Positions 4,537 through 50,163 of a stretch of DNA of 64,000 bases are shown piece after piece. The translations under genes and the position numbers were made by a program. The first letter of the stretch is position 1. The number at the start of each line of letters is the position of its first letter. The notes under the pieces are model-generated. The model had not been told where the DNA came from, ran no database searches, and was given only the letters and a program-made list of their open reading frames with translations. This stretch comes from a virus (taxonomy: Duplodnaviria; Caudoviricetes), in IMG/VR virus record IMGVR_UViG_3300011989_000007, positions 1 through 64,000 of that record. One strand, given 5' to 3'.

Positions 4537-5922
4537 ATGGCATTGATACAACCAAAACCTTTTCTTGACAATTTTAAATTAAGGAAAACTGCTCATGGGA
4601 CAGAACGTAGACGAAATATGTCTAAATTGATTTTGGAAGATTCTACATATTTTCCAAAGCCAATAACCTATGAGGATATTGATAAGGCTTTCTTTGATTG
4701 GGTTGATAAGACACTTGACATCTCTTATGATGGTAAGAGATTGCCTACATATAGATTGTTTTCGAATCAGAAGATTTCAGAGTATTCTCAGACTTGGGAA
4801 AATCTTGATGATACAGGTAATATCATAATGAATTTTAAAACGATTACTCGTGAGAATAATCCACAACATGGAGAAAGCCAAGGAGAATCTTATAACATAC
4901 CTGGTCATAGAGATTATCCTATGTTTGTAGTACCTGTTCTTCAAGAAAATGGAGAAGAGGCTTACGATTTGTATACCATGAAGCAGCCTTTTGCAATTAA
5001 TTTTGTATATACTGTAAATTTAGTAGTAAATAAGTATGAACTTTTGAATAAGTTCAATGAAATGATTAACTATGAATTTCAGTCGTTACAATGTTATATT
5101 GCGCCTAATTGTCATGCGATGCCTATGATGCTTGATTCTATTAATGATGAATCTGAATATACAGTGGATGACCGTAAATTTTATTCACAAACTTATGCGA
5201 TTAAAGTTTTAGGCTATATCATAAGGAAAGAGGATTATAAAGTACATAGAGTGCCATCAAGATTTATTGTTAGATTCTTGGGTGCTGAAGATGTTGATAT
5301 TTGGAAAAAAGACGGTTTTAAAAAATCAGCTAAATATAAACGAAATAGTGCTAATGATTTGGGAGAGGTACAAGTAGGTAATGATAGCATTTTCAGAAAG
5401 GGAACTAATGATTTGGTATCAATTGATTGTGAAGTTGGTTTAGACCACATTGTTGACCCTAAGAAGCCAAGACCTACAGTTGTTTATACTGAAGAAGATT
5501 TAGACAGGTCTTGTTGCATACAAGGAGAAGATAACCACTATTACAACAAATCATTGGAGTACGAGATACAAATACCTGATTGTGAGAGTAGTGTAACATT
5601 TACAATGGAATCAGAAATGGTACTTAATGAAATTAGCACTGATAATGTGTATGATTTCACCATTTACATTAATCAAGAGTTTACTGATTTGGAAGGCGAT
5701 GTTAGATTTTATGAAGGAGACAGCGTTAAAGTAATGATAACAAGGGATGATTTATTCAAGTCTTCTTCTTTGACTCTAAAAGGATATGACCCTAACGTAT
5801 TCTTTGATGATAGAGTTAATCCTGAATCTGAGCTTGATGTAACCCCTGACGGAGAAAAAATTGTTGTGGATGGAAACGATGAAGAAGATAATGGAAGTGG
5901 AGAAACAACTTCTAATGATTAA
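4537..5922 (+). CDS. Putative tail terminator/sheath stabiliser (T4 gp15-like) with C-terminal extension
   Basis: QPFAINFVYTVNL...MPMMLDSINDESEY..DDRKFYSQTYAIKVLGY; lies upstream of the sheath gene. Confidence 0.5.
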   Translation: MALIQPKPFLDNFKLRKTAHGTERRRNMSKLILEDSTYFPKPITYEDIDKAFFDWVDKTLDISYDGKRLPTYRLFSNQKISEYSQTWENLDDTGNIIMNFKTITRENNPQHGESQGESYNIPGHRDYPMFVVPVLQENGEEAYDLYTMKQPFAINFVYTVNLVVNKYELLNKFNEMINYEFQSLQCYIAPNCHAMPMMLDSINDESEYTVDDRKFYSQTYAIKVLGYIIRKEDYKVHRVPSRFIVRFLGAEDVDIWKKDGFKKSAKYKRNSANDLGEVQVGNDSIFRKGTNDLVSIDCEVGLDHIVDPKKPRPTVVYTEEDLDRSCCIQGEDNHYYNKSLEYEIQIPDCESSVTFTMESEMVLNEISTDNVYDFTIYINQEFTDLEGDVRFYEGDSVKVMITRDDLFKSSSLTLKGYDPNVFFDDRVNPESELDVTPDGEKIVVDGNDEEDNGSGETTSND

Positions 5923-6163
5923 TGAGTCAGATAAAAAATTTGAATTGTCTATGAATGATTTGTATAAGTTAAAAGCCTATATAAATAAAATAGGCGAATT
6001 GACAAATTTATTTTTCGAGTCACAAGTGGAATATGCGAATTTAATTAAGGACGATGACAACTATGAAGACTTATTAAGGGCATATCATAAAAAACTTTCA
6101 GAAAGTGAAGTTGAAATTGACTTGAAGGATGCAAAAGAACTGATAGAAAAGATAAATAGTTAG
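5861..6163 (+). CDS. Hypothetical protein (true start probably downstream of 5861)
   Basis: Helical ORF overlapping the end of the previous gene. Confidence 0.6.
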   Translation: MLWMETMKKIMEVEKQLLMINESDKKFELSMNDLYKLKAYINKIGELTNLFFESQVEYANLIKDDDNYEDLLRAYHKKLSESEVEIDLKDAKELIEKINS

Positions 6164-6257: not shown

Positions 6258-9200
6258 ATGGCAGATAATGCAAGAGGAGTACATGTATCACCAGGTGTTT
6301 ACTCAAGAGAAATTGATTTGACTTATGCAGTTAAGAGCCTTGGTATTACAACCTTAGGTTTGGCAGGTGAGACTCAGAAGGGTCCTGCTTTTCAGCCAAT
6401 GGCTATCAGTAACTGGCGTGAGTTTGTTAGCACTTTTGGAGGTACTAATCCTGAAAAATTTAAAGGAAGCCAATATCCTAAATATGAGTTGCCTTATATT
6501 GCAAAGTCATACTTAACACAGTCCAATCAGCTTGAAGTTGTTCGTGCATTAGGTCTTAGTGGATATAATGCAGGTCCTGCTTGGTTGATTACTGCTGATA
6601 TGGTAGGAGATGCTAATAAAGATGTTGATGGCGACCAAAAGAAGATGGTTGTTGCAGTTCTTCGTTCAAGAGGTGACTATTTAAAATATCGTAAGTTTGA
6701 CCCATCAACAGGAACTTGTGCTTGTCCAACTGATGAGTATGACACTTTGGTTTATAGAGTAGGTGAAGTTACAAAAACTGCAAGTGAATGCGGTAATCCT
6801 GTACAATATAACAAGTTTGCCTTAGAGTTGGACTACTATACCCCACTTTATTCAACTGGCAATGATTGTGAAGGTTATGAATTTGGGAAAGAAACACAAG
6901 AAACACAAAGTTTTAGTATCTCAGCAAGTAACTTAGGCAGATTTAAGATTAAAGGTATTACAGGTATACATAATTTGGGTACAGGTTATAAGGACTTAAA
7001 TAATACAGGTAGTTCTGGCTGCTGCTTTGAATATGCTGTTTCTTTGAACCCATATGATAAAGATTATATCATAAAGGTTTTAGGTACTGACCCTTCTGAT
7101 GGTGATGCGCCTATTTACGTAGAGGCTTTGTATGATGTTGCTTTGTCACAAGCAATTGCAGAGCAAGCAGATAAAGAAACACACGCAAGCGGAATCACTA
7201 GAGAGCTTTCATTCTATCAAGTTTATTCTCCTGCTGATTATTGTGGATTAGAGCCTGTTGCTTCTTTGCTAACAATTCCTGAAGGAAATCTTTCACGTAG
7301 AAATGTCGGTCAGAGATATTTGGCAGATGCTCACGCTGCTACAAGTGGTGAATTTAAGACTGATGTAGCAATTACATTCCACCCATACGATTATGCAACA
7401 AAAGAGCCTATCACTAGTGCTTATACGGCTGACACAAGTGACATTGATAGTGAAAACTACGATGAGAATGGCTTTATGATTGGCAATGTTAAAGCAGGAC
7501 ATATTTATACTGTAAGTCAGTACACTGACGGCAATGGTCGTAGACATTACTACTATCGTGCTTATACTGAAGCATCAATTAAGAAATATGTTGATGATTA
7601 TAAAAAGAAACATTCTGGAGGAACAATAAACACAGTTACATTATACGACACGCTTAGATACATTGGTAAATCTAAATTTATGAAGGATGAAGCTGTTTTC
7701 ACTGGAAGCACAACTTCAGGTAAAGGAGAAGTAGAAGGTGTAACTATGGAATTTATGAGTGGTATGACATCAGGTAATTCTAAAACTTACACTGATGCTA
7801 ATGTTGGCCAAACATTGGTTAAAAATCTTTCTGATGGACTTTACTATAGAATGTCGGATAGCAACGAAACTGGAGTTACATTTGTAACTTGTGACTTGAA
7901 TAATTATAAGTCAGCATATCGTTATGCTTCTACACCTTGGATTGTGTCTAACTTGATGGGTGATTATGACCATATTGAGCTTAAGAAGTTGTTTAGATTC
8001 CATACTATTTCTGATGGTAAGTGTGCTAACCACGAAGTTAAGGTTTCAATCGAGAACATTCGTCCTGACGATGGCGTATTTGATGTTGTTGTTCGTGATA
8101 TTAATGATACTGATGAGTATCAAGTACCACTTGAGAAGTACTCTCGTTGTAACTTAGTCCCTGGCACGAATAACTATATAGCATACAAGATTGGCTCATA
8201 CGATGGAATGTATGAAAGCAAATCTAAATACATTACCGTAGAATGTAAAGAAGGCGATGTTATTGAAAGCGCTATCCCTGCAGGTTTCTTAGGATACCCT
8301 TCAACACAGTATGGTGGCTATCCAGTCGTAGATGATGCCCAAACAGGTGTTACAAGCCCTTGGATTAGATATAATACATTATATGACAATGATGTTAAGA
8401 ACAGAAAACAGTACTTTGGTTTATCAACACGTGTAGGCGTTGATTTAGACATGTTTGAATTCAAGGGTAATGCGTCTTATATTGATTCACCTCAGATGTT
8501 ATCACATGGTTTCCATTTGGATTCCCGTTTGGATATTGATACAAAAGAGAATCCTAACTACAAGCCAAGCATTACAGTTGATGGCGAATTTGGATATAAA
8601 TTTGATGCAGTTTCAAGAAATAATAGAACAACTACATTAACTGATGCGCCTATAATCGGTACTGAAGAGGCTATGACAGGTACAATTTACGAGTACGATA
8701 ACTTACGTAAGTTCACTGTATACTTCTATGGTGGTTTCGATGGTTGGGATGAGTTCAGAACATCAAGAACAAACACTGATGACTTCAAGGCTTCTAAGTA
8801 TCTTGGTACTTATGACAACAATAGCGGTGAGGGCTACTCATTCAATAGAATTGACGATCCTGAGTCTCTTGGCTTGAATCAGAATGGTATTACATCTGAC
8901 TGGTATGCTTACTTGGCTGCAATTAGACAATTTGCAAACCCTGAAGCAGTTGACATCAACGTATTCGCAACACCAGGTATTGACTACGTAAACAACAAGA
9001 CTCTTGTTGAGGAGGCAATCGAGATGATTGAGGAAGAGAGAGCTGACTCAATCTACGTTGTAACAACTCCTGATAAGCCAATGGGTGCAGGTGACTTTGT
9101 AGACGAGATGTACACTCCTGACGATGCAGTTTACAACTTGGAGGATTCAGAACTTGATTCTAACTATACTTGTACATATTATCCTTGGGTTAAGTATCTT

Positions 9201-40836: not shown

Positions 40837-43371
40837 ATGACGGCACGAAATGAAAGAAAAGATTTAGGGTTCTTAGGAGAGGACTTTCAGTACAAATTGG
40901 TAAGAGAGTTTACTGACGATAAGGAACTCTTTAAGGATTTGAGTAGCGTCATTGACCAAAATATGTTCACCGACCCTAATTTGAAGACTTATGTAGGCGT
41001 AATGAAGGAATACTATGAAAAGTATGATAGTGTTCCTTCATACGATATAATTCAAGTAAAACTATTTGAGAAATCGCATTCTGACACCGAAAGAGAGTTC
41101 TATGCTGCAATAGTTGACAAAATCAAGCATACGCCTACAGATGGTTCTGAATTTATTAGGGACACTGCAACAAAATTCTTCAAGCAGCAGAACATTATTA
41201 AAACTGCAAACGAAATCTTAAAGATTGCAGGAAATGGTGATGTTTCTAATTACGACAAGTGTGTTGAATTGCTCAATGGCGCATTAAATGCAGGTACACA
41301 CAATGATTTAGGTTCAGGCGTATTTGATAATGAAGAAGAGACACTTTCAGATGATTATCGTATACCAATTCCAACGGGTATTGAAGGAATTGATGAAACG
41401 CTTGAAGGTGGTATTGGCAAGGGAGAACTTGGCGTAATCGTTGGACCAAGTTCGTTCGGTAAATCACAACCACTTGATGCTAGAATATTAACCCCAAATG
41501 GATATAAACTAATGGGAGAAATGTCTGTTGGAGATTATGTAATAGGTTCTGACGGTAAACCTCATGTTGTAAGTGGTATATATCCTCAAGGCAAAAGACC
41601 AATATATAAAGTTTCATTTTCAAATGGTACTTCGTGTGAATGTGATATAGAACATTTATGGAATGTAAATTCTCTCTATCAAAGATGCGGTAAAAAATAT
41701 GTCGCAGGTATTTCCAAAAACAGAGACGATAAAATATATGCTCCTGATCATTCATTTAAAACTTTATCCTTAAGAGAAATATTAGAAAAAGGACTAACTA
41801 AAAAAGGTTCTTCAAAATATAACTTCAAGGTTCCTGTGGTTAAACCGATTGAATTTGCTGAGCAAGAAACTAAGTTTGACCCATATTTAGCAGGCTATTA
41901 TATTGGTGATGGTTGTTTTAAAAGAGTTGGAATAACAGTTGGAAAAAACGATAAAGAATGTGTTGAATCAATTTTGAAACCAATTTTAAATGAAGATTTG
42001 CATATTTTTTATAGAGAAAAAAGAAACATTTATCAATTTGATATTATAGGACAAACAAAAAAGAATTTAAAAGAATGCTTTTCTACAGAATGCAAATCAG
42101 ATGGTAAATTTATACCTAAAGAATATTTGTTCAATTCCATCGAAAAAAGAATTGCTATTTTACAGGGTATAATGGATTCTGATGGTCACGCAAACAAAAA
42201 TGGTTCTTGTGAATTCTGTAGTAAGAGTAAACAACTCGCATTAGATGTACAATTTCTTGTTCGTTCCCTTGGAGGTTTTGCAAGTTTAAAAGAATCAAGT
42301 TCTTCATATTTTTCTAAAAAATACAATAAGAGAATAGATTGTGGTAAACGTTATAGGGTGACTATAAGTATGTGCGACAACTCTATTCCATTATTTAGAA
42401 TGGAAAGGAAACAAACAAGAGTTAAATATCGCACACGTGGGGCAGATGCTTTGTTTATGACAAACGCTGAATATGTTGGAGAAAAAGAAGCACAGTGTAT
42501 AATGGTAGATTCTGATGAACATTTATATGTTACTGAAGATTTTATTGTAACGCATAACACGTCTTTGACCACTGCTATTGCAGGATTTGCTTCAACATAT
42601 CCTTGTGAGCAGAACAATTATGAGGGTTTCAAGGTACTTCAGATTGTATTCGAGGATAGAGTAAAGCAGATTCAGAGAAAGCATTTTGGTCGTATCACTG
42701 GTATTGAATCTAAGGATTTGGGTAAGCCTGAATATATTAATACCGTTCGAGAGCAACTCGACCATTATGAAGGTAAGGAAATGATGGAGAAAAACTTACG
42801 TATTCTTCGTCTTCCAAGTGGAGAAAAGACTGCTTGGGATATTGAACGAATTATTAAGAGGTTTATTAACAATGGTTTTAGACCTGACCTTGTAATCGTT
42901 GACTATTTTGAATGTTTGGCACATAGGAACGAAGGCACTCTGTCAGAGTGGGAACAAGAAGGTAAGACTATGCGAAAGTTCGAGGCTATGGCAGGTACAC
43001 TTAATATGGCATTTTGGATTCCTCTTCAAGGAACTAAAGACTCTGTTAATATGGAGCTTGTTACTATGGATAAAGCAGGTGGCTCTTTCAAGAAGATTCA
43101 GATTGCACACATAGTAATGTCAATAGCACGTTCAAACGAGGATATTGCTGAAAATAAGGCAACTATCGCAATCTTAAAGAATAGAGCAGGTAAAGCTGGT
43201 AAGGTATTTAACAATGTTGAGTTCAACAATGGTACTTGCCGAATCAGTACTGCAAATTGTGATGATGGTCTTGATTCAATGTTCGCTTTCGATAAGAAGC
43301 AACAAAAGGATAGAGATAATCTCGCATCAGAAATTTTTAAGAAGTATAAAGCCGAACATGGAGCAAAATAA
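40837..43371 (+). CDS. dnaB: Replicative DnaB/gp41-like helicase containing an intein
   Basis: IPTG...LEGGIGKGELGVIVGPSSFGK|T; Walker B VIVDY; ILKNR. Confidence 0.9.
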   Translation: MTARNERKDLGFLGEDFQYKLVREFTDDKELFKDLSSVIDQNMFTDPNLKTYVGVMKEYYEKYDSVPSYDIIQVKLFEKSHSDTEREFYAAIVDKIKHTPTDGSEFIRDTATKFFKQQNIIKTANEILKIAGNGDVSNYDKCVELLNGALNAGTHNDLGSGVFDNEEETLSDDYRIPIPTGIEGIDETLEGGIGKGELGVIVGPSSFGKSQPLDARILTPNGYKLMGEMSVGDYVIGSDGKPHVVSGIYPQGKRPIYKVSFSNGTSCECDIEHLWNVNSLYQRCGKKYVAGISKNRDDKIYAPDHSFKTLSLREILEKGLTKKGSSKYNFKVPVVKPIEFAEQETKFDPYLAGYYIGDGCFKRVGITVGKNDKECVESILKPILNEDLHIFYREKRNIYQFDIIGQTKKNLKECFSTECKSDGKFIPKEYLFNSIEKRIAILQGIMDSDGHANKNGSCEFCSKSKQLALDVQFLVRSLGGFASLKESSSSYFSKKYNKRIDCGKRYRVTISMCDNSIPLFRMERKQTRVKYRTRGADALFMTNAEYVGEKEAQCIMVDSDEHLYVTEDFIVTHNTSLTTAIAGFASTYPCEQNNYEGFKVLQIVFEDRVKQIQRKHFGRITGIESKDLGKPEYINTVREQLDHYEGKEMMEKNLRILRLPSGEKTAWDIERIIKRFINNGFRPDLVIVDYFECLAHRNEGTLSEWEQEGKTMRKFEAMAGTLNMAFWIPLQGTKDSVNMELVTMDKAGGSFKKIQIAHIVMSIARSNEDIAENKATIAILKNRAGKAGKVFNNVEFNNGTCRISTANCDDGLDSMFAFDKKQQKDRDNLASEIFKKYKAEHGAK
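41464..42558 (+). mobile_element. Intein (365 aa) with LAGLIDADG endonuclease, inserted in the helicase P-loop
   Basis: Starts SQPLDARILTP right after GK; ends IVTHN before Thr; internal AGYYIGDG and LQGIMDSDG. Confidence 0.92.
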
Positions 43372-43440
43372 AGGTAATTAAATAGTTTTAAAATTGAAAT
43401 TTTTGATGAAAAATTAATTTAAAATTATTTTTATAACGTA

Positions 43441-43482
43441 ATGTTGGGTGTATGAACAAGTTATACGCCCAACATTTTTTTT
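43441..43482 (+). terminator. Rho-independent terminator
   Basis: atgttgggtgtat...atacgcccaacat + T-tract. Confidence 0.8.
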
Positions 43483-43601: not shown

Positions 43602-46600
43602 ATGAAAGTTTTAAAACGTGACAAAACCGTTGAGGAATTTCAGATTAAAAAAATTGAAAAGGCTATAGGCGCAGCCTTTGAATCCTGTGGTGAAACACCA
43701 AAATCTGACGTATTGGACTGTATCAAGTCCATTTACAATGAAAATGATGACATCACAATTGATGTAGAAGAGATACAAGATAATGTTGAACGATGTTTAA
43801 TGGCTTCTTATCCTGATGTTGCGAAGGCTTATATTATCTATAGGTATCAGCACAAGTTGATAAGGGAAAATCAGAGCAAATTGGTTAAACAGATTAAAAA
43901 GAAATTAACTGCTGAAGACGTTCAGAACCAAAATGCCAATGTTGATGAGTTCTCATTCGGAGGACGTATTGGTGAAGCCAGTAGAGTTGTGACGAAACAA
44001 TATGCACTTGACTATTGTATGTCAAGGAAGTCAAGGAATAACCACCTTAACAACGAAATTTATATCCATAAGTTAAAAATTGTGGCATAAATCAGTAATG
44101 ATTTATTGAAAACTGCGTGAACACATGACTCGTGTGGTGTGGGGTTACATAACATGTAAACCTGCTAACGGTATCAGCTAAATAAGGGAAATGAATCAAC
44201 CACGAATACGCTGACTAAGAGAACTTACGGTCTATGATGTGATAGATAGCAAGCAATACCGTGCTAAACTAAGTTTTTAATTATTAAACCTTAAAATATT
44301 AAAAACAGAAAGAAGTGTATCGACTAAAGGCGATGAGTGTAGCCTTGTAGGGTAGGGATGAGTACTACTCGAAGTGCGTGGCATCCTAAAGAGGATGGTG
44401 AGATAGTCAGTTCAATATAGAAATATATCGAGTAAACGGATTTAGATTCATATGCGATTGGAATGCATAACTGCTTGACTGTACCATTTGATGAATTGCT
44501 TTCTAAAGGCTTCAAAACAAGACAAACCGATATTAGACCTGCAAATTCAATTAATACTGCTTTCCAATTGGTAGCAGTTCTTTTTCAAATTCAGTCATTG
44601 CAACAGTTTGGGGGTGTAGCCTCAAGTCACATTGATTGGACAATGGTCCCGTATGTAAGGAAGTCATTTTATAAGCATTTTACTAAGAAGTACATTCTTA
44701 GCGAAATGAAAAAGGAAAATGTTGATTTCAAACATAGTAAGGATTTTAGTGAATATTGTAAGCTAAAACGCAAAGAGTTCAACGAGAAGTATGGTATTGA
44801 AGATGAGAAGTTCGTAATTGGTGATTTTTCAATGGATTGCGTTAATTTCCATGTTGGTGATGAGAAATTAATGAATATTAATAAAGACTGGTATGATGAG
44901 GCTTTGATTAGTACAACTGAAGAGTTGAGACAAGCAGTTGAAGGAATGTATCATAACCTCAACTCATTGCAAAGTCGTAGTGGTTGGGCTAAAAGCGATT
45001 GCCACCTTGTAGCATAATACATAAACTACAAGAAAAATCCCGTAAAATCGGTGAAGGCTAAAAAAAAATACGTTCTAATTATTTGACGTTAATTAATGCT
45101 AATACCGAGGCAATTTTGTAGATTTCGAAAGGCTACAAAACACCGTAGAGCGTAGGTGGTGAATAAATATAATCCACCCAAGAGTGCGGGACACCTTTGT
45201 GAAAGCGAAGGTGAAAATGTACGCCGAACTTATTGGAAACAATAAGATTTATGATTTAAACGGTCATAAGATAACAATCTTGAATCAGCTAGAAGTAAAC
45301 GTGGCTGCTTAAGGAGAAATCCTTTCGAATAAATTGGGTAAAATCGGTGAACCCTAAATTTTAAATTGTAAAATATAAAAAATATTTCATTTACTTGACT
45401 AAAAAATAAAAATGCCTACTTTTTATATGATAAGTAAATGATTTATTATGGCTAGAAAACAAATTACAGACGAATTAAAGGAAGATATAAAGAAATTCTA
45501 TCACACAAAACCAATGCCGTTCTCAATGGTTTGTGAAAAATATGGGTTAAGCCAACCTACAGTTGGTAAAATATTAAAAGATGAAAAAAAATATGCTAAA
45601 GCATCAATTTATAACCCAGAACTTATTGATTCATACTTTGAGAATATTGACACTGAAGTAAAAGCTTATTTTATAGGTTTGATAATTGCTGATGGTAATG
45701 TTTTTGTCGATGAGAAAAACAAAAATGCGAATAGACAAGCGTCAATCTCTTTAACATTAGAATCAAATGACGAATATATTTTGGAAAAATTCAAAAAAGA
45801 GGTAAAATCAAACACTAGCATTTCTCACGATGGAAGAGGATGTTCGCAAATAGCAGTTAGGAGTAATAAAATGTCAGAAGATTTATCAAGATATGGAATT
45901 ATTCCAAGAAAAAGCTTTTCAACCTATTTACCGTTACTAAAAAACGATTTAATGCCACATCTCATTAGAGGTATAATGGATGGCGATGGTAGCATAGCTG
46001 CTCATACGATAAAAAGTGGTAGTTTTTTACATTCAATTTCTTTTTGTGGTACGCATAAATTAATGAACGATATATCTGACTATTTATATAGTAATGTAAG
46101 TTTGAAAACAAAGCCTAGAGTATATGATTATAAAAACAAACCATTAAGTGAAATTTCCATTAGGAGTAAAGATGATATGGTTAAATTTGGCAATTACATT
46201 TATAATAATTCATCTATATACCTAATTAGGAAAAAAAATATTTATAATTTATTTTTAGAGCATTACAATTTAAAACAAGGGAATACCGAGGTAAGTTCTG
46301 AGATTACGAAAGGCTCAGAAACACTGTAGAGCGTAGGTGGTGAATAAATATAATCCACCCAAGAGTATCCACCCTTAGCACGTAATGGTGAAGGTGTAAA
46401 TGTACGCCGACCTTGTGGGAAACCACAAGAACTATAGGATAAAAAGCCTATAGGATAACAAAGTGACCTTTCACATCAATCAACTACGGAACTTGTACAC
46501 TACCTGAAGGTAGAATGGTTATCAAGGCATTGCTAGAAGGTTCAATAAATGGTGTTGGTGAACATCATTTGACACCTATTTTCCCTTGTGGTATTTTCCA

Positions 46601-48309
46601 ATGCATGAAGGGTGTAAATAGGAAAGAAGGAGAACCTAACTACGATTTGTTCAAGCTCGCATTGGAATCAACATCTCAGAGGATTTATCCTAATTATGTA
46701 AATGTTGATTGGTCAGTAAATGCAGGATATGACTCAAATAATCCTAGGACATATACTGCAACGATGGGTAAGCGTAAACTACAGCTCATCGCAAAAATCT
46801 CTTGAACCACGCTCGTGGGTGTCCAGAAATGGGCTAACGGTTAGGTCTTTTTAACATAAAGATGAGACCGTGTGAAGATTTATCGTTTTGAAATATATTA
46901 CGATAAATAACATGTATCGACTATCCCTGATGAATGTAAGGGAGTAGGGGTGGAGATAAGCACCACCTCAAAGCGGGAGACTACGAAAGTAGAAGATATA
47001 GTCAGTGCCTTTGGCGACAAAGGAAATAAACGTGTAGAACTTACAATGGTTATGATATTAATGGTCTTGGCCAAATGAAGGATGGTAGAGGTAATTTAGC
47101 ACCTGTGACCATTATTATGCCTACTTTGGCTATGGAAGCAAAGGAGATGCTTGAAGGCAAGGAATTTACAAAGGAAGAGCTTGTTAATAAATTTATGAAA
47201 GTTCTTGATAAGAAGATTCACGAGGCTAAAGATATGCTTCTTGAACGTTTTGAAAGAATGTGCAGTCAGAGTCCAAAGGCAGCTTCATTTATGTGGCTTA
47301 ATGGTACAATGTTTGGTTATAACGAGAAGGAAGGACCAATTTCAGCATTACGCCATGGAACTCTAGCAGCGGGACAATTAGGCTTGGCGGAGACTCTTAA
47401 CATTTTGATTGGCAAAGACCAAACAACTGAAGAGGGTATGGCATTGGCCAAAGAGATTGAAGGGTTGTTTAAGAAGAGATGCGCTGAATTCAAGAAGCAG
47501 TACAGTTTGAACTTTGGCGTTTATTATACACCAGCAGAAAATCTTTGCTATACATCATTCAAGAAGTTCAAGGATAAGTATGGTGACATTGAAGGTGTTA
47601 CATATTATATTAAGAAGGACGAGAATGGTAATGAAACAAGAAAGGATAAGGAGTACTTTACTAACTCAATACACGTACCTGTTTATAAAGAGATGAGTCC
47701 ATTTGACAAGATTGACATCGAAAGTCAGTTGACATCATTCTCAAATGCAGGTTGTATCACTTACGTTGAGCTACCTTCAGGTACTAAGAACAATATAGAG
47801 GGTCTTGAAACTATTGTGAATTATGCAATGGATTCCGATATTCCTTACTTTGCAATAAACGTACCAATTGATGAGTGTCACGATTGTGGCTATACTGACG
47901 AAATGGGTGATACTTGTCCTGAGTGTGGTAGTCATAATGTTCAGCACCTAAGACGTGTAACTGGTCGATAAAGTGGCCGTTTTCAGAAGCAATTCTGATT
48001 ATTATTATTGGGCAAAATCGGTGAAGCCTAAAAGTTTAAACTCAAGGTAATACCGAGATAATGTTAAATTAACAAATTAACACATTGTAACGCATAGAAA
48101 ATGAAACTCGCAAGAGAATATAATTTTTCCAAGAGTGCCCAACCCCTATTAGGGTGAAAATGTATGCTGAACTTATAGGAAACTATAAGAACATAAGGAT
48201 AAAAAACCTTATGGGTAACAAATTGTACTTATCAACAACTTACGAACATTTCAATCTTGGTAAACAGGATGAGGTTAAAGATCGTGTTAAACACATAAAT
48301 AAATTTTGA
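43602..48309 (+). CDS. nrdD: Anaerobic ribonucleoside-triphosphate reductase in 6 exons: 43602-44069, 44439-44984, 45283-45290, 46466-46769, 47033-47965, 48226-48309 (2343 nt, 780 aa)
   Basis: Splicing restores IYIH|DLD..HNC, SRSG|NQL|PFTSINYG, TMG|CRT and RRVTG|YL; N-terminal ATP cone; CHDC..CPEC zinc site. Confidence 0.92.
44070..44438 (+). ncRNA. Group I intron 1 of nrdD (no ORF)
   Basis: 5' exon ends in U, intron ends in G; P1 ccau/gugg; P7 gacua/uaguc. Confidence 0.88.
44985..45282 (+). ncRNA. Group I intron 2 of nrdD (no ORF)
   Basis: P1 guggu/gccac; P10 gauu/aauc; P7 gcgua/uacgc; terminal G. Confidence 0.88.
45291..46465 (+). ncRNA. Group I intron 3 of nrdD (carries a homing endonuclease)
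   Basis: P1 cagcu/ggcug; core shared with intron 2; terminal G at 46465. Confidence 0.88.
45448..46329 (+). CDS. Intron-encoded double-motif LAGLIDADG homing endonuclease with N-terminal HTH
   Basis: AYFIGLIIADG and LIRGIMDGDG; 3' end runs into the intron core. Confidence 0.9.
   Translation: MARKQITDELKEDIKKFYHTKPMPFSMVCEKYGLSQPTVGKILKDEKKYAKASIYNPELIDSYFENIDTEVKAYFIGLIIADGNVFVDEKNKNANRQASISLTLESNDEYILEKFKKEVKSNTSISHDGRGCSQIAVRSNKMSEDLSRYGIIPRKSFSTYLPLLKNDLMPHLIRGIMDGDGSIAAHTIKSGSFLHSISFCGTHKLMNDISDYLYSNVSLKTKPRVYDYKNKPLSEISIRSKDDMVKFGNYIYNNSSIYLIRKKNIYNLFLEHYNLKQGNTEVSSEITKGSETL
46770..47032 (+). ncRNA. Group I intron 4 of nrdD (no ORF)
   Basis: P1 gaugggu/gcucauc; P10 cuaca/uguag; P7 gacua/uaguc. 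Confidence 0.9.
47966..48225 (+). ncRNA. Group I intron 5 of nrdD (no ORF)
   Basis: P1 ggu/gcc; P10 aagug/uacuu; aaaucggugaa...aauaccgag core as in introns 2 and 3. Confidence 0.88.
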
Positions 48310-48314
48310 AAATA

Positions 48315-48347
48315 ATTAAACCCAGAAATGCATTTTCTGGGTTTAAT
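48315..48347 (+). terminator. Strong hairpin after nrdD
   Basis: attaaacccagaaa...tttctgggtttaat; no clean U-tract. Confidence 0.55.
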
Positions 48348-48395
48348 AAATATTTATTAATGTGTGAGAGGATTAAACCACTAACACGACTAAAT

Positions 48396-49406
48396 ATGAA
48401 TTATAAAAAAATTTACGAAGATTTAATTAATAGAGCGAAAGAAAGAAAAGATTTAGAAACTTACTTTGAAATACATCATATCATACCTAAATCAGTTGGT
48501 GGTAATAATGATGAAGATAATTTGGTTAAATTAACTTTAAGGGAACATTATTTAGCACACGAATTATTGGCTTTTATTTATCCTGAAAGTAAAGAATTAA
48601 AATATGCTTTATGGATGATGACAACTTCAACGATTGCAGCTGAAAATGAATTTAAAAATGGTGCGAAGAATATTAAAGGTAGGGTTAAACATTTTTTAGA
48701 AACTAATACTAAAAAGATTAGAATTAGTTCATATGAATACGATTTGTTTAGAAGGAAGATTTCTTCATTAAGAAGGATGAAAAGATATAGTGCTGACGAA
48801 AGAAAAAACGTTTCTGAAGGTACAAGAAAAGCAATGAAAAATCCTGATGTCATTAAAAAATGCATTAGTGGCTCTAAAGGTTGCCATTATTATCACGATA
48901 AAGTAACTCAAAAAGTCTACAAATGGTTTCCTGGTGATGGTGATATTGATTTAGATAAATACGAATGGGGCAGATGTCCTATGACCGCTGAGCAAAAGAA
49001 AAAATTATCTGACTTATCTAATATGAAGAAAAGGTATTTTATTATCCCAGAAATAAATGCCAAATACACAATGTATGAAAATTATTTAAATTGTGTGCCA
49101 AGTCATTGGGAGGAAAAATGGACTAACAAATCTAATCGTAATTTACGAAATAATTTAATATCGGCTATAAGAAAGGTGAACATATTAACATCATTTAAAT
49201 ATGAAAATGAATTAATAATAAAAGATTCTAATAAAAGTAAGAATTTTAAAATTATTTCACCCTCTATTTATGAACACTGTGCTGATTCAATGGAAGGTTG
49301 GGAAAATGAAGACGTTTCTGATAAAATTTCAAAGAGCATTATATTAAATATTGATAAAATTATTAATAGTAATAAAATTTATATAAAAGTCAAAAATTAT
49401 GATTGA
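48396..49406 (+). CDS. Free-standing HNH endonuclease (T4 Mob-like) between nrdD and nrdG
   Basis: MNYKKIYEDLI...EIHHIIPKSVGG...NLVKLTLREHYLAHELL; start set to ATG 48396. Confidence 0.85.
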   Translation: MNYKKIYEDLINRAKERKDLETYFEIHHIIPKSVGGNNDEDNLVKLTLREHYLAHELLAFIYPESKELKYALWMMTTSTIAAENEFKNGAKNIKGRVKHFLETNTKKIRISSYEYDLFRRKISSLRRMKRYSADERKNVSEGTRKAMKNPDVIKKCISGSKGCHYYHDKVTQKVYKWFPGDGDIDLDKYEWGRCPMTAEQKKKLSDLSNMKKRYFIIPEINAKYTMYENYLNCVPSHWEEKWTNKSNRNLRNNLISAIRKVNILTSFKYENELIIKDSNKSKNFKIISPSIYEHCADSMEGWENEDVSDKISKSIILNIDKIINSNKIYIKVKNYD

Positions 49407-49674: not shown

Positions 49675-50163
49675 ATGAGATTTTGGAGTATTAGTTACCC
49701 AGACTTAAACAATGGTTTGGGTTGCAGAGTTACCCTATGGGTAGCAGGTTGTTCACACCATTGTAAAGGATGCCAAAATAGACAGACTTGGGATTTTGAA
49801 GGAGGAAGATTATTTACCAAAACTGATAAGGATAATTTATTTGAGGCTTTGAATAAGCCATATATTAAAGGAGTAACGCTTAGTGGCGGAGACCCTATGG
49901 ATAATTTTTATGAAATATTGGAGTTAGTTAAGGAAATCAAAGAGAAGTTTCCATCAAAAGATATTTGGTTATATACTGGTTATACATTAAAAGAAATTGA
50001 AGATAGCTTTAGGAATGAAATCATTCCATACATTGATTATTTAGTTGACGGACGATTTGAATTAGATAAGAGAGACATTTCTCTTAAATTTAGAGGTTCT
50101 TCAAACCAAATTATTTGGGTGAAGAATGAAGAAGGAAAATTAGTTAAAAGTGACTTAAATTAG
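49675..50163 (+). CDS. nrdG: Anaerobic RNR activating enzyme (radical SAM)
   Basis: GCSHHCKGCQN, SGGDP, WLYTGY, VDGRF, FRGSSNQ. Confidence 0.95.
   Translation: MRFWSISYPDLNNGLGCRVTLWVAGCSHHCKGCQNRQTWDFEGGRLFTKTDKDNLFEALNKPYIKGVTLSGGDPMDNFYEILELVKEIKEKFPSKDIWLYTGYTLKEIEDSFRNEIIPYIDYLVDGRFELDKRDISLKFRGSSNQIIWVKNEEGKLVKSDLN

What the first reader, a model, noticed from the sequence alone, without database searches (positions are those of the whole stretch)
43602..48309. nrdD carries five group I introns, placed at catalytic motifs
Seen: six exons sum to 2343 nt in one frame (780 aa). Every 5' exon ends in U, every intron ends in G, and each has a visible P1/P10. Intron 1 sits 11 codons before the HNC cysteine, intron 4 directly before the MG|C cysteine, and intron 5 splits the glycyl-radical loop RVTG|YL. 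Five introns in one phage gene is very high, and ORF callers report it as four unrelated fragments.
Basis: partly seen in the sequence, partly recalled or inferred. Interest (0 to 1): 0.75.

Follow-up and report, generated by a model that had tools for sequence, protein, structure and literature searches.

The report
Phage nrdD with five introns
A phage gene for the oxygen-sensitive enzyme that makes DNA building blocks really is cut into six pieces by five self-splicing (group I) introns lying next to its catalytic residues; this is an extreme case of a pattern already known in phages, not a new kind of element.

Summary
Exons 43602-44069, 44439-44984, 45283-45290 (only 8 nt), 46466-46769, 47033-47965 and 48226-48309 sum to 2343 nt. 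They give a stop-free 780-aa NrdD that aligns in one piece with intron-less NrdD genes of related uncultured phages.

All five inserts end their upstream exon in U and end in G, and all have P1/P10 guide pairings. They fall into two group I families:
- I1 and I4 resemble the T4 nrdD (sunY) intron, subgroup IA2.
- I2, I3 and I5 are paralogues of a second widespread phage intron family. I3 carries a LAGLIDADG endonuclease gene.

Covariation on 48 and 15 homologues supports P3-P9 (94-96% of cells paired, against 30-45% in slid controls). Rfam's model gives only sub-threshold hits for I1 and I4 and none for I5. Splicing itself is untested.

Each of the five sites is occupied singly in other IMG/VR phages, so this gene stacks known homing sites.

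Published precedents exist: T4 nrdD, Twort (three introns in one gene), a crAss-like capsid gene in five fragments, and Jug-phage nrdD in four fragments with RNA evidence. This scan has also noted similar multi-intron nrdD genes on other DNA. I class it as a new member of a known kind, of moderate interest.

The parts
43602..44069 (+). nrdD exon 1 (156 codons: ATP-cone plus the start of the NRDD domain)
   Evidence: Pfam ATP-cone E=1.8e-21 and NRDD positions 2-50. Ends ...ATCCAT.
44070..44438 (+). Intron 1, 369 nt, ORF-less, family A (sunY/IA2-like)
   Evidence: Rfam RF00028 gives 28.7 bits, E=1.5e-5, when searched alone, below the gathering score of 50. Model R1 gives 114.7 bits, but I1 was a training row. 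P3 CUGCG/CGUGG covaries with CCAUG/CAUGG in the same-site intron of L149. Fold z-score is only -1.06.
44439..44984 (+). nrdD exon 2 (182 codons, contains the HNC Cys equivalent to T4 Cys79)
   Evidence: Pfam NRDD positions 46-154. Matches PDB 1H78 residues 71-149.
44985..45282 (+). Intron 2, 298 nt, ORF-less, family B
   Evidence: Row in alignment A1, with P3-P9.1 pairs kept. Fold z-score -4.06. Cross-detected by the family-A model R1 at 18.7 bits, E=0.0025. L039 and L127 have an intron at the same G|N site.
45283..45290 (+). nrdD exon 3, the 8-nt micro-exon AATCAGCT (codons N, Q and two bases of L)
   Evidence: It is needed to restore the conserved SRSGNQLPF motif. J2-only genes (L039, L127) read straight through downstream of it. 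J3-only genes (L361-L363) read straight through upstream of it.
45291..46465 (+). Intron 3, 1175 nt, family B, with a LAGLIDADG homing endonuclease ORF at 45448-46329 in the P5 loop
   Evidence: 92% identical to I2 over 66 nt. Pfam LAGLIDADG_3 E=4.8e-7. PHROG 4645 endonuclease E=5e-41. Helices P3 UGGGU/AUCCA, P5 CCCU/AGGG, P6a, P7, P7.1, P9 and P9.1 were read from the sequence. L361-L363 have an intron at the same site.
46466..46769 (+). nrdD exon 4 (304 nt)
   Evidence: Pfam NRDD positions 157-265.
46770..47032 (+). Intron 4, 263 nt, ORF-less, family A (sunY/IA2-like), directly before the catalytic Cys codon
   Evidence: 32-nt exact match to the T4 nrdD intron. RF00028 gives 22.4 bits, E=8.7e-4, sub-threshold. 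The MFE fold recovers P3, P4-P6, P7.1, P7.2, P8 and P9 with z=-3.28. RNAalifold predicts the long-range P3 with compensatory changes. Dozens of IMG/VR nrdD genes have an intron at this site.
47033..47965 (+). nrdD exon 5 (311 codons: catalytic Cys, Zn-ribbon cysteines, RVTG)
   Evidence: Pfam NRDD positions 262-541, E=2e-67. Matches PDB 8P23 and 1H78.
47966..48225 (+). Intron 5, 260 nt, ORF-less, family B, splitting the glycyl-radical loop RVTG|Y
   Evidence: Row in A1. Fold z-score -5.08. Cross-detected by family-A model R1 at 30.3 bits, E=8.6e-6. No RF00028 hit. L031 and L108 have an intron at the same site.
48226..48309 (+). nrdD exon 6 (27 codons plus stop)
   Evidence: YLSTTYEHFNLGKQDEVKDRVKH aligns with the TR-TP2 C-terminus.
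48306..49406 (+). Free-standing HNH homing endonuclease gene abutting nrdD. It is context and a possible helper for the ORF-less introns.
   Evidence: Pfam HNH. PHROG 655 homing endonuclease E=6e-37.
49675..50163 (+). nrdG (the NrdD activase, a radical-SAM enzyme), uninterrupted
   Evidence: Pfam Fer4_12 E=4e-52 and Radical_SAM.

Best explanation
nrdD of this contractile-tailed phage is a working gene invaded by five mobile group I introns. The contig is a 107-kb IMG/VR fragment.

The region between a terminator-like hairpin at 43440-43476 and another at 48315-48347 is probably made as one transcript. Each intron then folds into the group I core (P3-P8 and P4-P6 domains, P7 pseudoknot). Its internal guide pairs with the last bases of the upstream exon (P1, with U.G at the cut). 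A free guanosine attacks the 5' splice site, and the terminal G of the intron then docks so that the exons are ligated, helped by P10.

Removing all five introns gives a 2343-nt ORF for a 780-aa class III ribonucleotide reductase with an ATP-cone, both active-site cysteines, a Zn-ribbon and the glycyl-radical Gly.

The introns belong to two lineages. I1 and I4 are T4 sunY-like (IA2). I2, I3 and I5 are paralogues of a second family that is common in phages.

The introns sit at catalytic motifs because homing endonucleases and guide sequences target the most conserved DNA. Each site is an independent homing site that is occupied singly in other phages. I2 and I3 landed 8 nt apart, leaving a micro-exon that both guide sequences must share.

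Shown: the exon model, colinearity with intron-less genes, RNA architecture and covariation, and site sharing with other phages. Inferred: actual self-splicing, a single transcript, and the homing history.
For: - Exon model and junctions.
- Single-segment colinearity with the intron-less nrdD of L009, L010 and L011, with TR-TP2, and with L032 up to the RVTG junction, residue 754.
- Piecewise colinear Pfam NRDD coverage.
- PDB matches to T4 and other NrdD structures.
- Family B covariation: 54 pairs, 94.4% of cells paired, 37 pairs with compensatory changes, slid controls 30-45%.
- Family A 3' domain covariation: 23 pairs, 96.3% paired, slid controls 34-39%.
- RNAalifold finds the long-range P3 on its own.
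- P3 of I1 covaries with L149.
- 32-nt identity of I4 to the T4 intron.
- Sub-threshold RF00028 hits for I1 and I4.
- The family-A model detects I5 and I2, which were not in its training set.
- Fold z-scores of -3.3 to -5.1 for I4, I2 and I5.
- A LAGLIDADG endonuclease gene in I3.
- The same sites occupied in other phages: J1 in L149 and L237; J2 in L039 and L127; J3 in L361-L363; J4 in dozens; J5 in L031 and L108.
- No + strand terminator-like site inside the gene.
- An intact nrdG downstream.
Against: - No RNA data, so splicing has not been observed.
- RF00028 misses all five at gathering threshold and in the 5-kb E<=10 scan. It gives no hit for I5 even when I5 is searched alone, while the T4 intron scores 105 bits.
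- The I1 fold z-score is not significant (-1.06).
- P1 is short (4 bp) for I1 and I5, and P10 of I3 is only 2 bp.
- I2's P10 and I3's P1 compete for the same 8 nt. Similar tandem introns in Twort skip their 23-nt exon (PMC10136302, citing Landthaler & Shub 1999). Skipping here would frameshift the protein.
Confidence: 0.85

Rival explanations
1. nrdD is a decaying pseudogene. One or more of the inserts are dead intron relics that no longer splice, so no full-length NrdD is made.
For: Rfam scores are far below threshold. The I1 fold is no better than shuffles. P1 is short for I1 and I5, and P10 is weak for I3. Four of the five introns have no endonuclease gene.
Against: All six exons stay in frame with no stop, and the catalytic residues are kept. 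Every core helix is intact in all five introns and follows the family covariation. nrdG is intact. ORF-less members of both families are common at the same sites in many phages.
Confidence: 0.08
2. Splicing at the I2-exon 3-I3 pair is inefficient or alternative. The two near-identical neighbours cooperate or compete, so that the 8-nt exon is often skipped and a frameshifted, truncated product results. Intron load would then throttle or regulate NrdD output rather than being neutral.
For: I2's P10 (AAUC[A]GCU) and I3's P1 (CAGCU) overlap on the 8-nt exon (sequence). I2 and I3 share a 66-nt block at 92% identity and an identical P7.1 stem. Exon skipping is documented for the similar Twort orf142 introns 2 and 3 (23-nt exon) and for Coxiella 23S introns (34-nt exon) (PMC10136302).
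Against: The two guides are different (GCCAC against GGCUG), which in engineered tandem introns favoured exon inclusion (PMC10136302). No RNA data are available. The gene is otherwise conserved, as if it were functional.
Confidence: 0.05
3. The arrangement is an assembly chimera of strain variants that each carry fewer introns, for example a J2-only and a J3-only haplotype.
For: The contig is a metagenome assembly. Introns I2, I3 and I5 share repeats of up to 66 nt. J2-only and J3-only genes exist in other phages.
Against: The two haplotypes would share only the 8-nt exon at the join, which is far shorter than assembler k-mers. The exons on either side are colinear and in frame. The I2 and I3 flanks are unique sequence.
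Confidence: 0.02

Closest known systems
Phage T4 nrdD (sunY) group I intron with I-TevII (subgroup IA2)
   Same: Same host gene. I4 shares a 32-nt identical P7-P7.1 stretch and a near-identical guide region (GCUCAU). The order P7-P7.1-P7.2-P3'-P8-P7'-P9 is the same. An HNH mob-type gene follows nrdD in both.
   Different: The T4 intron sits about 10 codons upstream of our I2 site (AYE|YEV), not at any of the five sites here. T4 has one intron and this gene has five. I1 and I4 have two extra hairpins between P3 and P4 and no ORF. Rfam scores T4 at 105 bits and ours at 29 or less.
Staphylococcus phage Twort orf142 (three group I introns, 23-nt exon, exon skipping) and Twort nrdE (two introns near conserved residues)
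   Same: Several similar IA-type introns in one phage gene, a very short exon between two near-identical introns, and insertion next to functionally important residues (PMC10136302, PMC3653736).
   Different: Five introns instead of three, and an 8-nt exon instead of 23 nt. The gene and phage group differ. Splicing is shown for Twort and not shown here.
Jug (jumbo gut) phage nrdD and crAss-like Zeta-group capsid gene
   Same: Uncultured gut phages with intron-dense genomes. Jug nrdD is fragmented in 95 of 104 genomes, with an example in four fragments and metatranscriptome-supported splicing (PMC12880540). A crAss-like MCP is split into five fragments (PMC7886860).
   Different: Six exons here. 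I found no evidence that this contig is a Jug phage: no eIF-1a or topo IV domain on the 107-kb fragment. It has a tail sheath, so it is not crAss-like. The micro-exon is not described in those papers. Jug authors saw no splice reads between their 230-aa and 91-aa nrdD fragments, and a micro-exon of this kind could cause that (inference).
Thomasclavelia phages TR-TP1/TR-TP2 nrdD (closest cultured relatives)
   Same: 59-66% identical NrdD. It is also split near the catalytic Cys by an insert carrying an HNH gene.
   Different: One insert only, spliced AU|G GGU, which is 4 nt upstream of our I4 site. Its guide is I1-like. GenBank annotates it as two separate CDS.

Membership tests
Group I self-splicing intron | P1 helix between the internal guide and the 5' exon, with a U.G wobble at the 5' splice site | tested here: met
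   Read from the sequence. I1 CCAU/GUGG, I2 GUGGU/GCCAC, I3 CAGCU/GGCUG, I4 CGAUGGGU/GCUCAUCG, I5 UGGU/GCCG plus 2. P1 is short (4 bp) for I1 and I5.
Group I self-splicing intron | Terminal G (omega-G) at the 3' splice site, and P10 with the 3' exon | tested here: met
   All five introns end in G. P10 is 5, 4+3, 2, 5 and 5+3 bp, so it is weak for I3.
Group I self-splicing intron | Conserved core: P3-P8 and P4-P6 domains with the P3/P7 pseudoknot, supported by covariation | tested here: met
   Family B: 10 helices, 94.4% of cells paired, 37 of 54 pairs compensatory. Family A: P7, P7.1, P7.2, P8 and P9 at 96.3% paired, and P3 from RNAalifold and from L149. P4-P6 of family A comes from the MFE fold and from reading only.
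Group I self-splicing intron | Match to the curated covariance model Rfam RF00028 at its gathering score (50 bits) | tested here: not met
   No hit in the window. Searched alone: I1 28.7 bits, I4 22.4 bits, I5 none. The T4 control scores 105 bits. This is a detection threshold of one model, not a defining property of the class.
Group I self-splicing intron | Guanosine-dependent self-splicing that yields ligated exons | not testable with these tools
   No transcript data are available for this contig.
Subgroup IA2 (T4 td/nrdB/sunY, Twort) | P7.1 and P7.2 hairpins inserted between P7 and P3' | tested here: met
   I1 and I4 have both, with the conserved P7.1 loop GAUGARUGUA, as T4 does. I2, I3 and I5 have a single P7.1 (plus a P7.1a-like inner hairpin in I5), so they are IA-like but not IA2. 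The subgroup definitions are from memory of Michel & Westhof 1990.
Class III ribonucleotide reductase NrdD (host gene) | Colinear NRDD domain with the two active-site Cys, the C-terminal Zn-ribbon and the RVxGY glycyl-radical motif | tested here: met
   Features found: HNC, MGC, CHDCGY...CPECGS and RRVTGY.

The most novel reading that the evidence does not exclude
The family-B introns have hopped within nrdD by retargeting their guide sequences. At least four sites are used, three of them within 9 nt: G|N, N|Q and CAGCT|A. In this phage two copies ended up 8 nt apart and still exchange sequence. Their guides overlap on the micro-exon, so correct NrdD synthesis would depend on ordered splicing, and part of the transcripts would skip the exon. 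That would make this a natural case of ribozyme interference or regulation at the smallest known exon between two group I introns.
Probability: 0.15. Interest if true: 0.65.

Novelty: new member of a known kind. Interest (0 to 1): 0.45.

Why it matters
The gene shows how far selfish ribozymes can load a single essential phage gene without breaking it. It also shows that gene callers and Rfam both miss this: the gene appears as four 'unrelated' fragments and no intron is reported.

The comparison set gives a map of at least a dozen intron homing sites in phage nrdD, clustered at catalytic motifs. It also gives natural 'before and after' states for each of the five sites.

[quoted passage not shown] It may also explain splice junctions that read mappers fail to find in similar gut-phage genes.

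Tried and rejected
- Rfam over the window and over the 5-kb region found no group I hit. Only single-intron searches gave weak hits. The other weak hits (snoRNA, miRNA, SAM-II) are chance.
- I first assumed that I4 sat at the T4 intron's site. Locating the T4 splice site showed that it does not.
- I assumed that the TR-TP insert was at the I4 site. It is 4 nt upstream.
- The loose pattern for J3-site introns returned about 117 hits. None of them carries the family-B core, so I treat them as chance matches. A stricter pattern found three real cases.
- A first regular-expression filter for family A homologues was too strict and returned nothing.
- Jug-phage identity: no eIF-1a or topo IV domain on the contig. 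This is inconclusive for a fragment.
- Inteins are rejected because every insert has in-frame stops.
- Group II introns are rejected because no reverse-transcriptase ORF is seen in any insert and the inserts show the group I helices instead.
- Separately translated split subunits are rejected because of the 8-nt exon and the cuts inside conserved motifs.
- The Python box was lost, so later counts were done with the other tools. I3 could not be scored as a joined RNA.
Full report
**What is there.** The window is the first 64 kb of a 107-kb IMG/VR virus contig. The phage has a tail sheath, so it is contractile-tailed. Between 43602 and 48309 four ORF fragments carry successive, non-overlapping pieces of the Pfam NRDD model: HMM positions 2-52, 46-154, 157-265 and 262-541. 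The first fragment also has an ATP-cone. I rebuilt the exon model from the sequence and checked it by script. The exons are 43602-44069, 44439-44984, 45283-45290, 46466-46769, 47033-47965 and 48226-48309. They sum to 2343 nt in one frame and give 780 aa with only the terminal stop.

**Does the spliced product hold?** Yes. With tblastn the spliced protein matches the uninterrupted nrdD of three related uncultured phages as a single segment over residues 1-780 (L010), 1-776 (L011) and 3-777 (L009). Identity is 61-62%. It also matches L032 up to residue 754. Against the closest cultured relatives, Thomasclavelia phages TR-TP1 and TR-TP2, the alignment runs without a gap through four junctions: IYIH|DLDSYA, SRSG|NQ|LPFTSINYG and RRVTG|YL. 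The residues on both sides are identical or nearly so.

**Placement at catalytic motifs.** Exon 2 aligns to T4 NrdD residues 71-149, which puts the Cys of HNC at T4 Cys79. Exon 5 starts with the Cys of MG|C, about one residue from T4 Cys290, and ends in RRVTG, the glycyl-radical loop. I2 and I3 sit inside the invariant SRSGNQLPF motif.

**Are the inserts group I introns?** All five follow a U and end in G. The guide pairings, read directly from the sequence, are as follows.
- P1: CCAU/GUGG (I1), GUGGU/GCCAC (I2), CAGCU/GGCUG (I3), CGAUGGGU/GCUCAUCG (I4), and UGGU/GCCG plus two further pairs (I5).
- P10: 5, 4+3, 2, 5 and 5+3 bp.

Pairwise comparison splits the introns into two families.

**Family A (I1, I4).**
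- It has the T4 sunY layout P7 (CGACUA), P7.1 with loop GAUGARUGUA, P7.2, P3', P8, AGAUAUAGUC, P7', P9.
- I4 shares 32 identical bases with the T4 nrdD intron.
- On 48 non-redundant homologues from IMG/VR plus T4, 23 pairs are 96.3% paired, against 34-39% when the partner is slid. Every pair of P7.1 and P7.2, and four of five in P8, shows compensatory changes.
- RNAalifold on five full-length introns at the same site, plus I1 (whose 5' half was misaligned), independently predicts the long-range P3 with compensatory changes.
- P3 of I1 (CUGCG/CGUGG) covaries with CCAUG/CAUGG in the same-site intron of L149.
- The MFE fold of I4 recovers P3, two extra hairpins between P3 and P4, P4-P6, P7.1, P7.2, P8 and P9, with z=-3.3.

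**Family B (I2, I3, I5).**
- It has the layout P3, AAAA, P4 (UCGGU/ACCGA), P5, P6/P6a, P7 (GCRUA/UAYGC), a single P7.1, P3', P8, P7', P9 (GAAA loop) and P9.1.
- On 15 sequences, 54 pairs are 94.4% paired, against 30-45% when slid. 37 pairs show compensatory change, including five of the six P3 pairs that close the pseudoknot.
- Fold z-scores are -4.1 for I2 and -5.1 for I5.
- The family-A model R1 was built without any family-B sequence. It still finds I5 (30.3 bits, E=8.6e-6) and I2 (18.7 bits, E=0.0025) and aligns P7, P8 and P9 in register. The two families therefore share one architecture.
- I3 is 92% identical to I2 over 66 nt and keeps every helix by inspection.
- Its 293-aa LAGLIDADG ORF sits in the P5 loop and runs into P6.

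**Evidence on the other side.** Rfam RF00028 reports nothing in the window at gathering threshold, and nothing in the 5-kb region at E<=10. Searched alone, I1 reaches 28.7 bits and I4 22.4 bits, against a threshold of 50. I5 gives nothing. The T4 intron scores 105 bits in the same tool. The I1 fold is no better than shuffled sequence (z=-1.06). No RNA data exist for this contig, so splicing is inferred and not shown.

**Occupancy in other phages.** In this 107-kb contig the motifs occur only in nrdD, and R1 finds nothing else. Each of the five sites is occupied on its own elsewhere.
- J1: L149 and L237, with the same 3' exon GATTTAGA.
- J2 (G|N): L039 and L127.
- J3 (CAGCT|A): L361-L363, which read SRSGNQ straight into the intron.
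- J4 (MG|C): dozens of nrdD genes of 20-66% identity.
- J5 (RVTG|Y): L031 and L108.

Other sites are also used. These include N|Q, which is 3 nt from J2 (L008, L090, L129, L149), a T4-like site near residue 331, and sites near residues 165, 214, 560 and 609. Relatives carry none to at least four introns. L149 has four before its contig ends, and L129 and L149 have a 27-nt mini-exon between two introns. The T4 intron itself lies about 10 codons upstream of J2. The TR-TP insert lies 4 nt upstream of J4. This gene is therefore the most loaded one I found, but it is built from recurrent homing sites.

**The micro-exon.** J2-only and J3-only genes both exist, so the 8-nt exon is best explained by two independent insertions 8 nt apart. 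I2's P10 (AAUC[A]GCU) and I3's P1 (CAGCU) overlap on it. I2 and I3 also share an identical P7.1 stem that differs in other family members, which suggests recent exchange between the two neighbours. Similar tandem introns in Twort orf142 skip a 23-nt exon (PMC10136302). Skipping here would join GGT to ACC TTT and hit a stop after about 14 codons. Whether this happens is untested.

**Context.** Terminator-like hairpins flank the gene at 43440-43476 and 48315-48347, with none on the + strand inside it. nrdG is intact downstream. A free-standing HNH homing endonuclease gene abuts the nrdD stop, as mobC does in T4. It could service the ORF-less introns, but that is inference.

**Comparison with what is known.**
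- RNR genes are the most often intron-split phage genes, and nrdD is the most common of them (PMC3653736).
- Twort has three introns in one gene, and Brochothrix phage A9 nrdE has three introns plus an intein (PMC3653736, PMC10136302).
- A crAss-like capsid gene is split into five fragments (PMC7886860).
- Jug gut phages have nrdD fragmented in 95 of 104 genomes, with an example in four fragments and metatranscriptome-supported splicing (PMC12880540).
- Earlier notes of this scan report similar cases on other DNA: e1-3595506, five introns plus an intein in nrdD; e1-5525301, four introns with an 8-nt exon; e1-5381997, six introns in a capsid gene. I did not check those.

**Verdict.** The gene is a new member of a known kind at the upper end of the published range for introns in one phage gene. 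Interest is moderate at 0.45. The 8-nt exon between paralogous introns is the part most worth an experiment.

Noticed in passing
window 40837-43371 (+): The DnaB-like helicase ORF (844 aa) contains an in-frame LAGLIDADG/Hom_end domain between helicase segments. It looks like an intein in the gene just upstream of nrdD (Pfam).
   Followed up: no
window 48306-49406 (+); hairpin 48315-48347: A free-standing HNH homing endonuclease gene (PHROG 655) abuts the nrdD stop, as mobC does after T4 nrdD. A terminator-like hairpin lies inside its first codons, so the TTG start is doubtful.
   Followed up: partly
L001 (PQ571310.1) 5078-5956; L002 (PQ571309.1): GenBank Thomasclavelia phages TR-TP1 and TR-TP2 annotate nrdD as two CDS plus an HNH gene. 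The sequence reads as an unannotated group I intron spliced AU|G GGU, 4 nt upstream of the I4 site here, with an I1-like guide GUGG.
   Followed up: partly
L039, L127 (G|N); L008, L090, L129, L149 (N|Q); L361-L363 (CAGCT|A): Family-B introns use three different insertion points within 9 nt of nrdD. Each has a guide sequence matched to its own site, which suggests retargeting of one intron lineage.
   Followed up: partly
L129 2990-4560; L149 6382-6943: Two relatives have a T4-site-like intron and a family-B intron flanking a mini-exon of about 27 nt that encodes ..TLQSRSGN.
   Followed up: partly
window 44116-44168 (I1) and 46804-46836 (I4): I1, I4 and several relatives (L171, L240, L030) carry two extra hairpins between P3 and P4 (GAAC-hairpin-GUGU-hairpin-CUA). 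These are absent from T4 and from the compact relative L184. I do not know whether this peripheral element has been described.
   Followed up: partly
window 45120-45185 vs 46301-46366: I2 and I3 share a 66-nt block at 92% identity with an identical P7.1 stem (GGUGG/CCACC). Other family members differ there, which suggests recent sequence exchange between the two neighbouring introns.
   Followed up: partly
L365 (MW478292.1) 1501-1642; L364 (NC_007058.1) 1801-1885: Family-B intron cores lie unannotated in cultured phages. One is between the two terminase large subunit CDS of Clostridium phage vB_CpeS-1181, and another is just after an HNH gene in Staphylococcus phage ROSA.
   Followed up: no
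L015, L016, L017 near 6651-6653; L023: Some related nrdD genes change frame by one base with no insert (at residue 681/682). This could be sequencing error or a frameshift.
   Followed up: no
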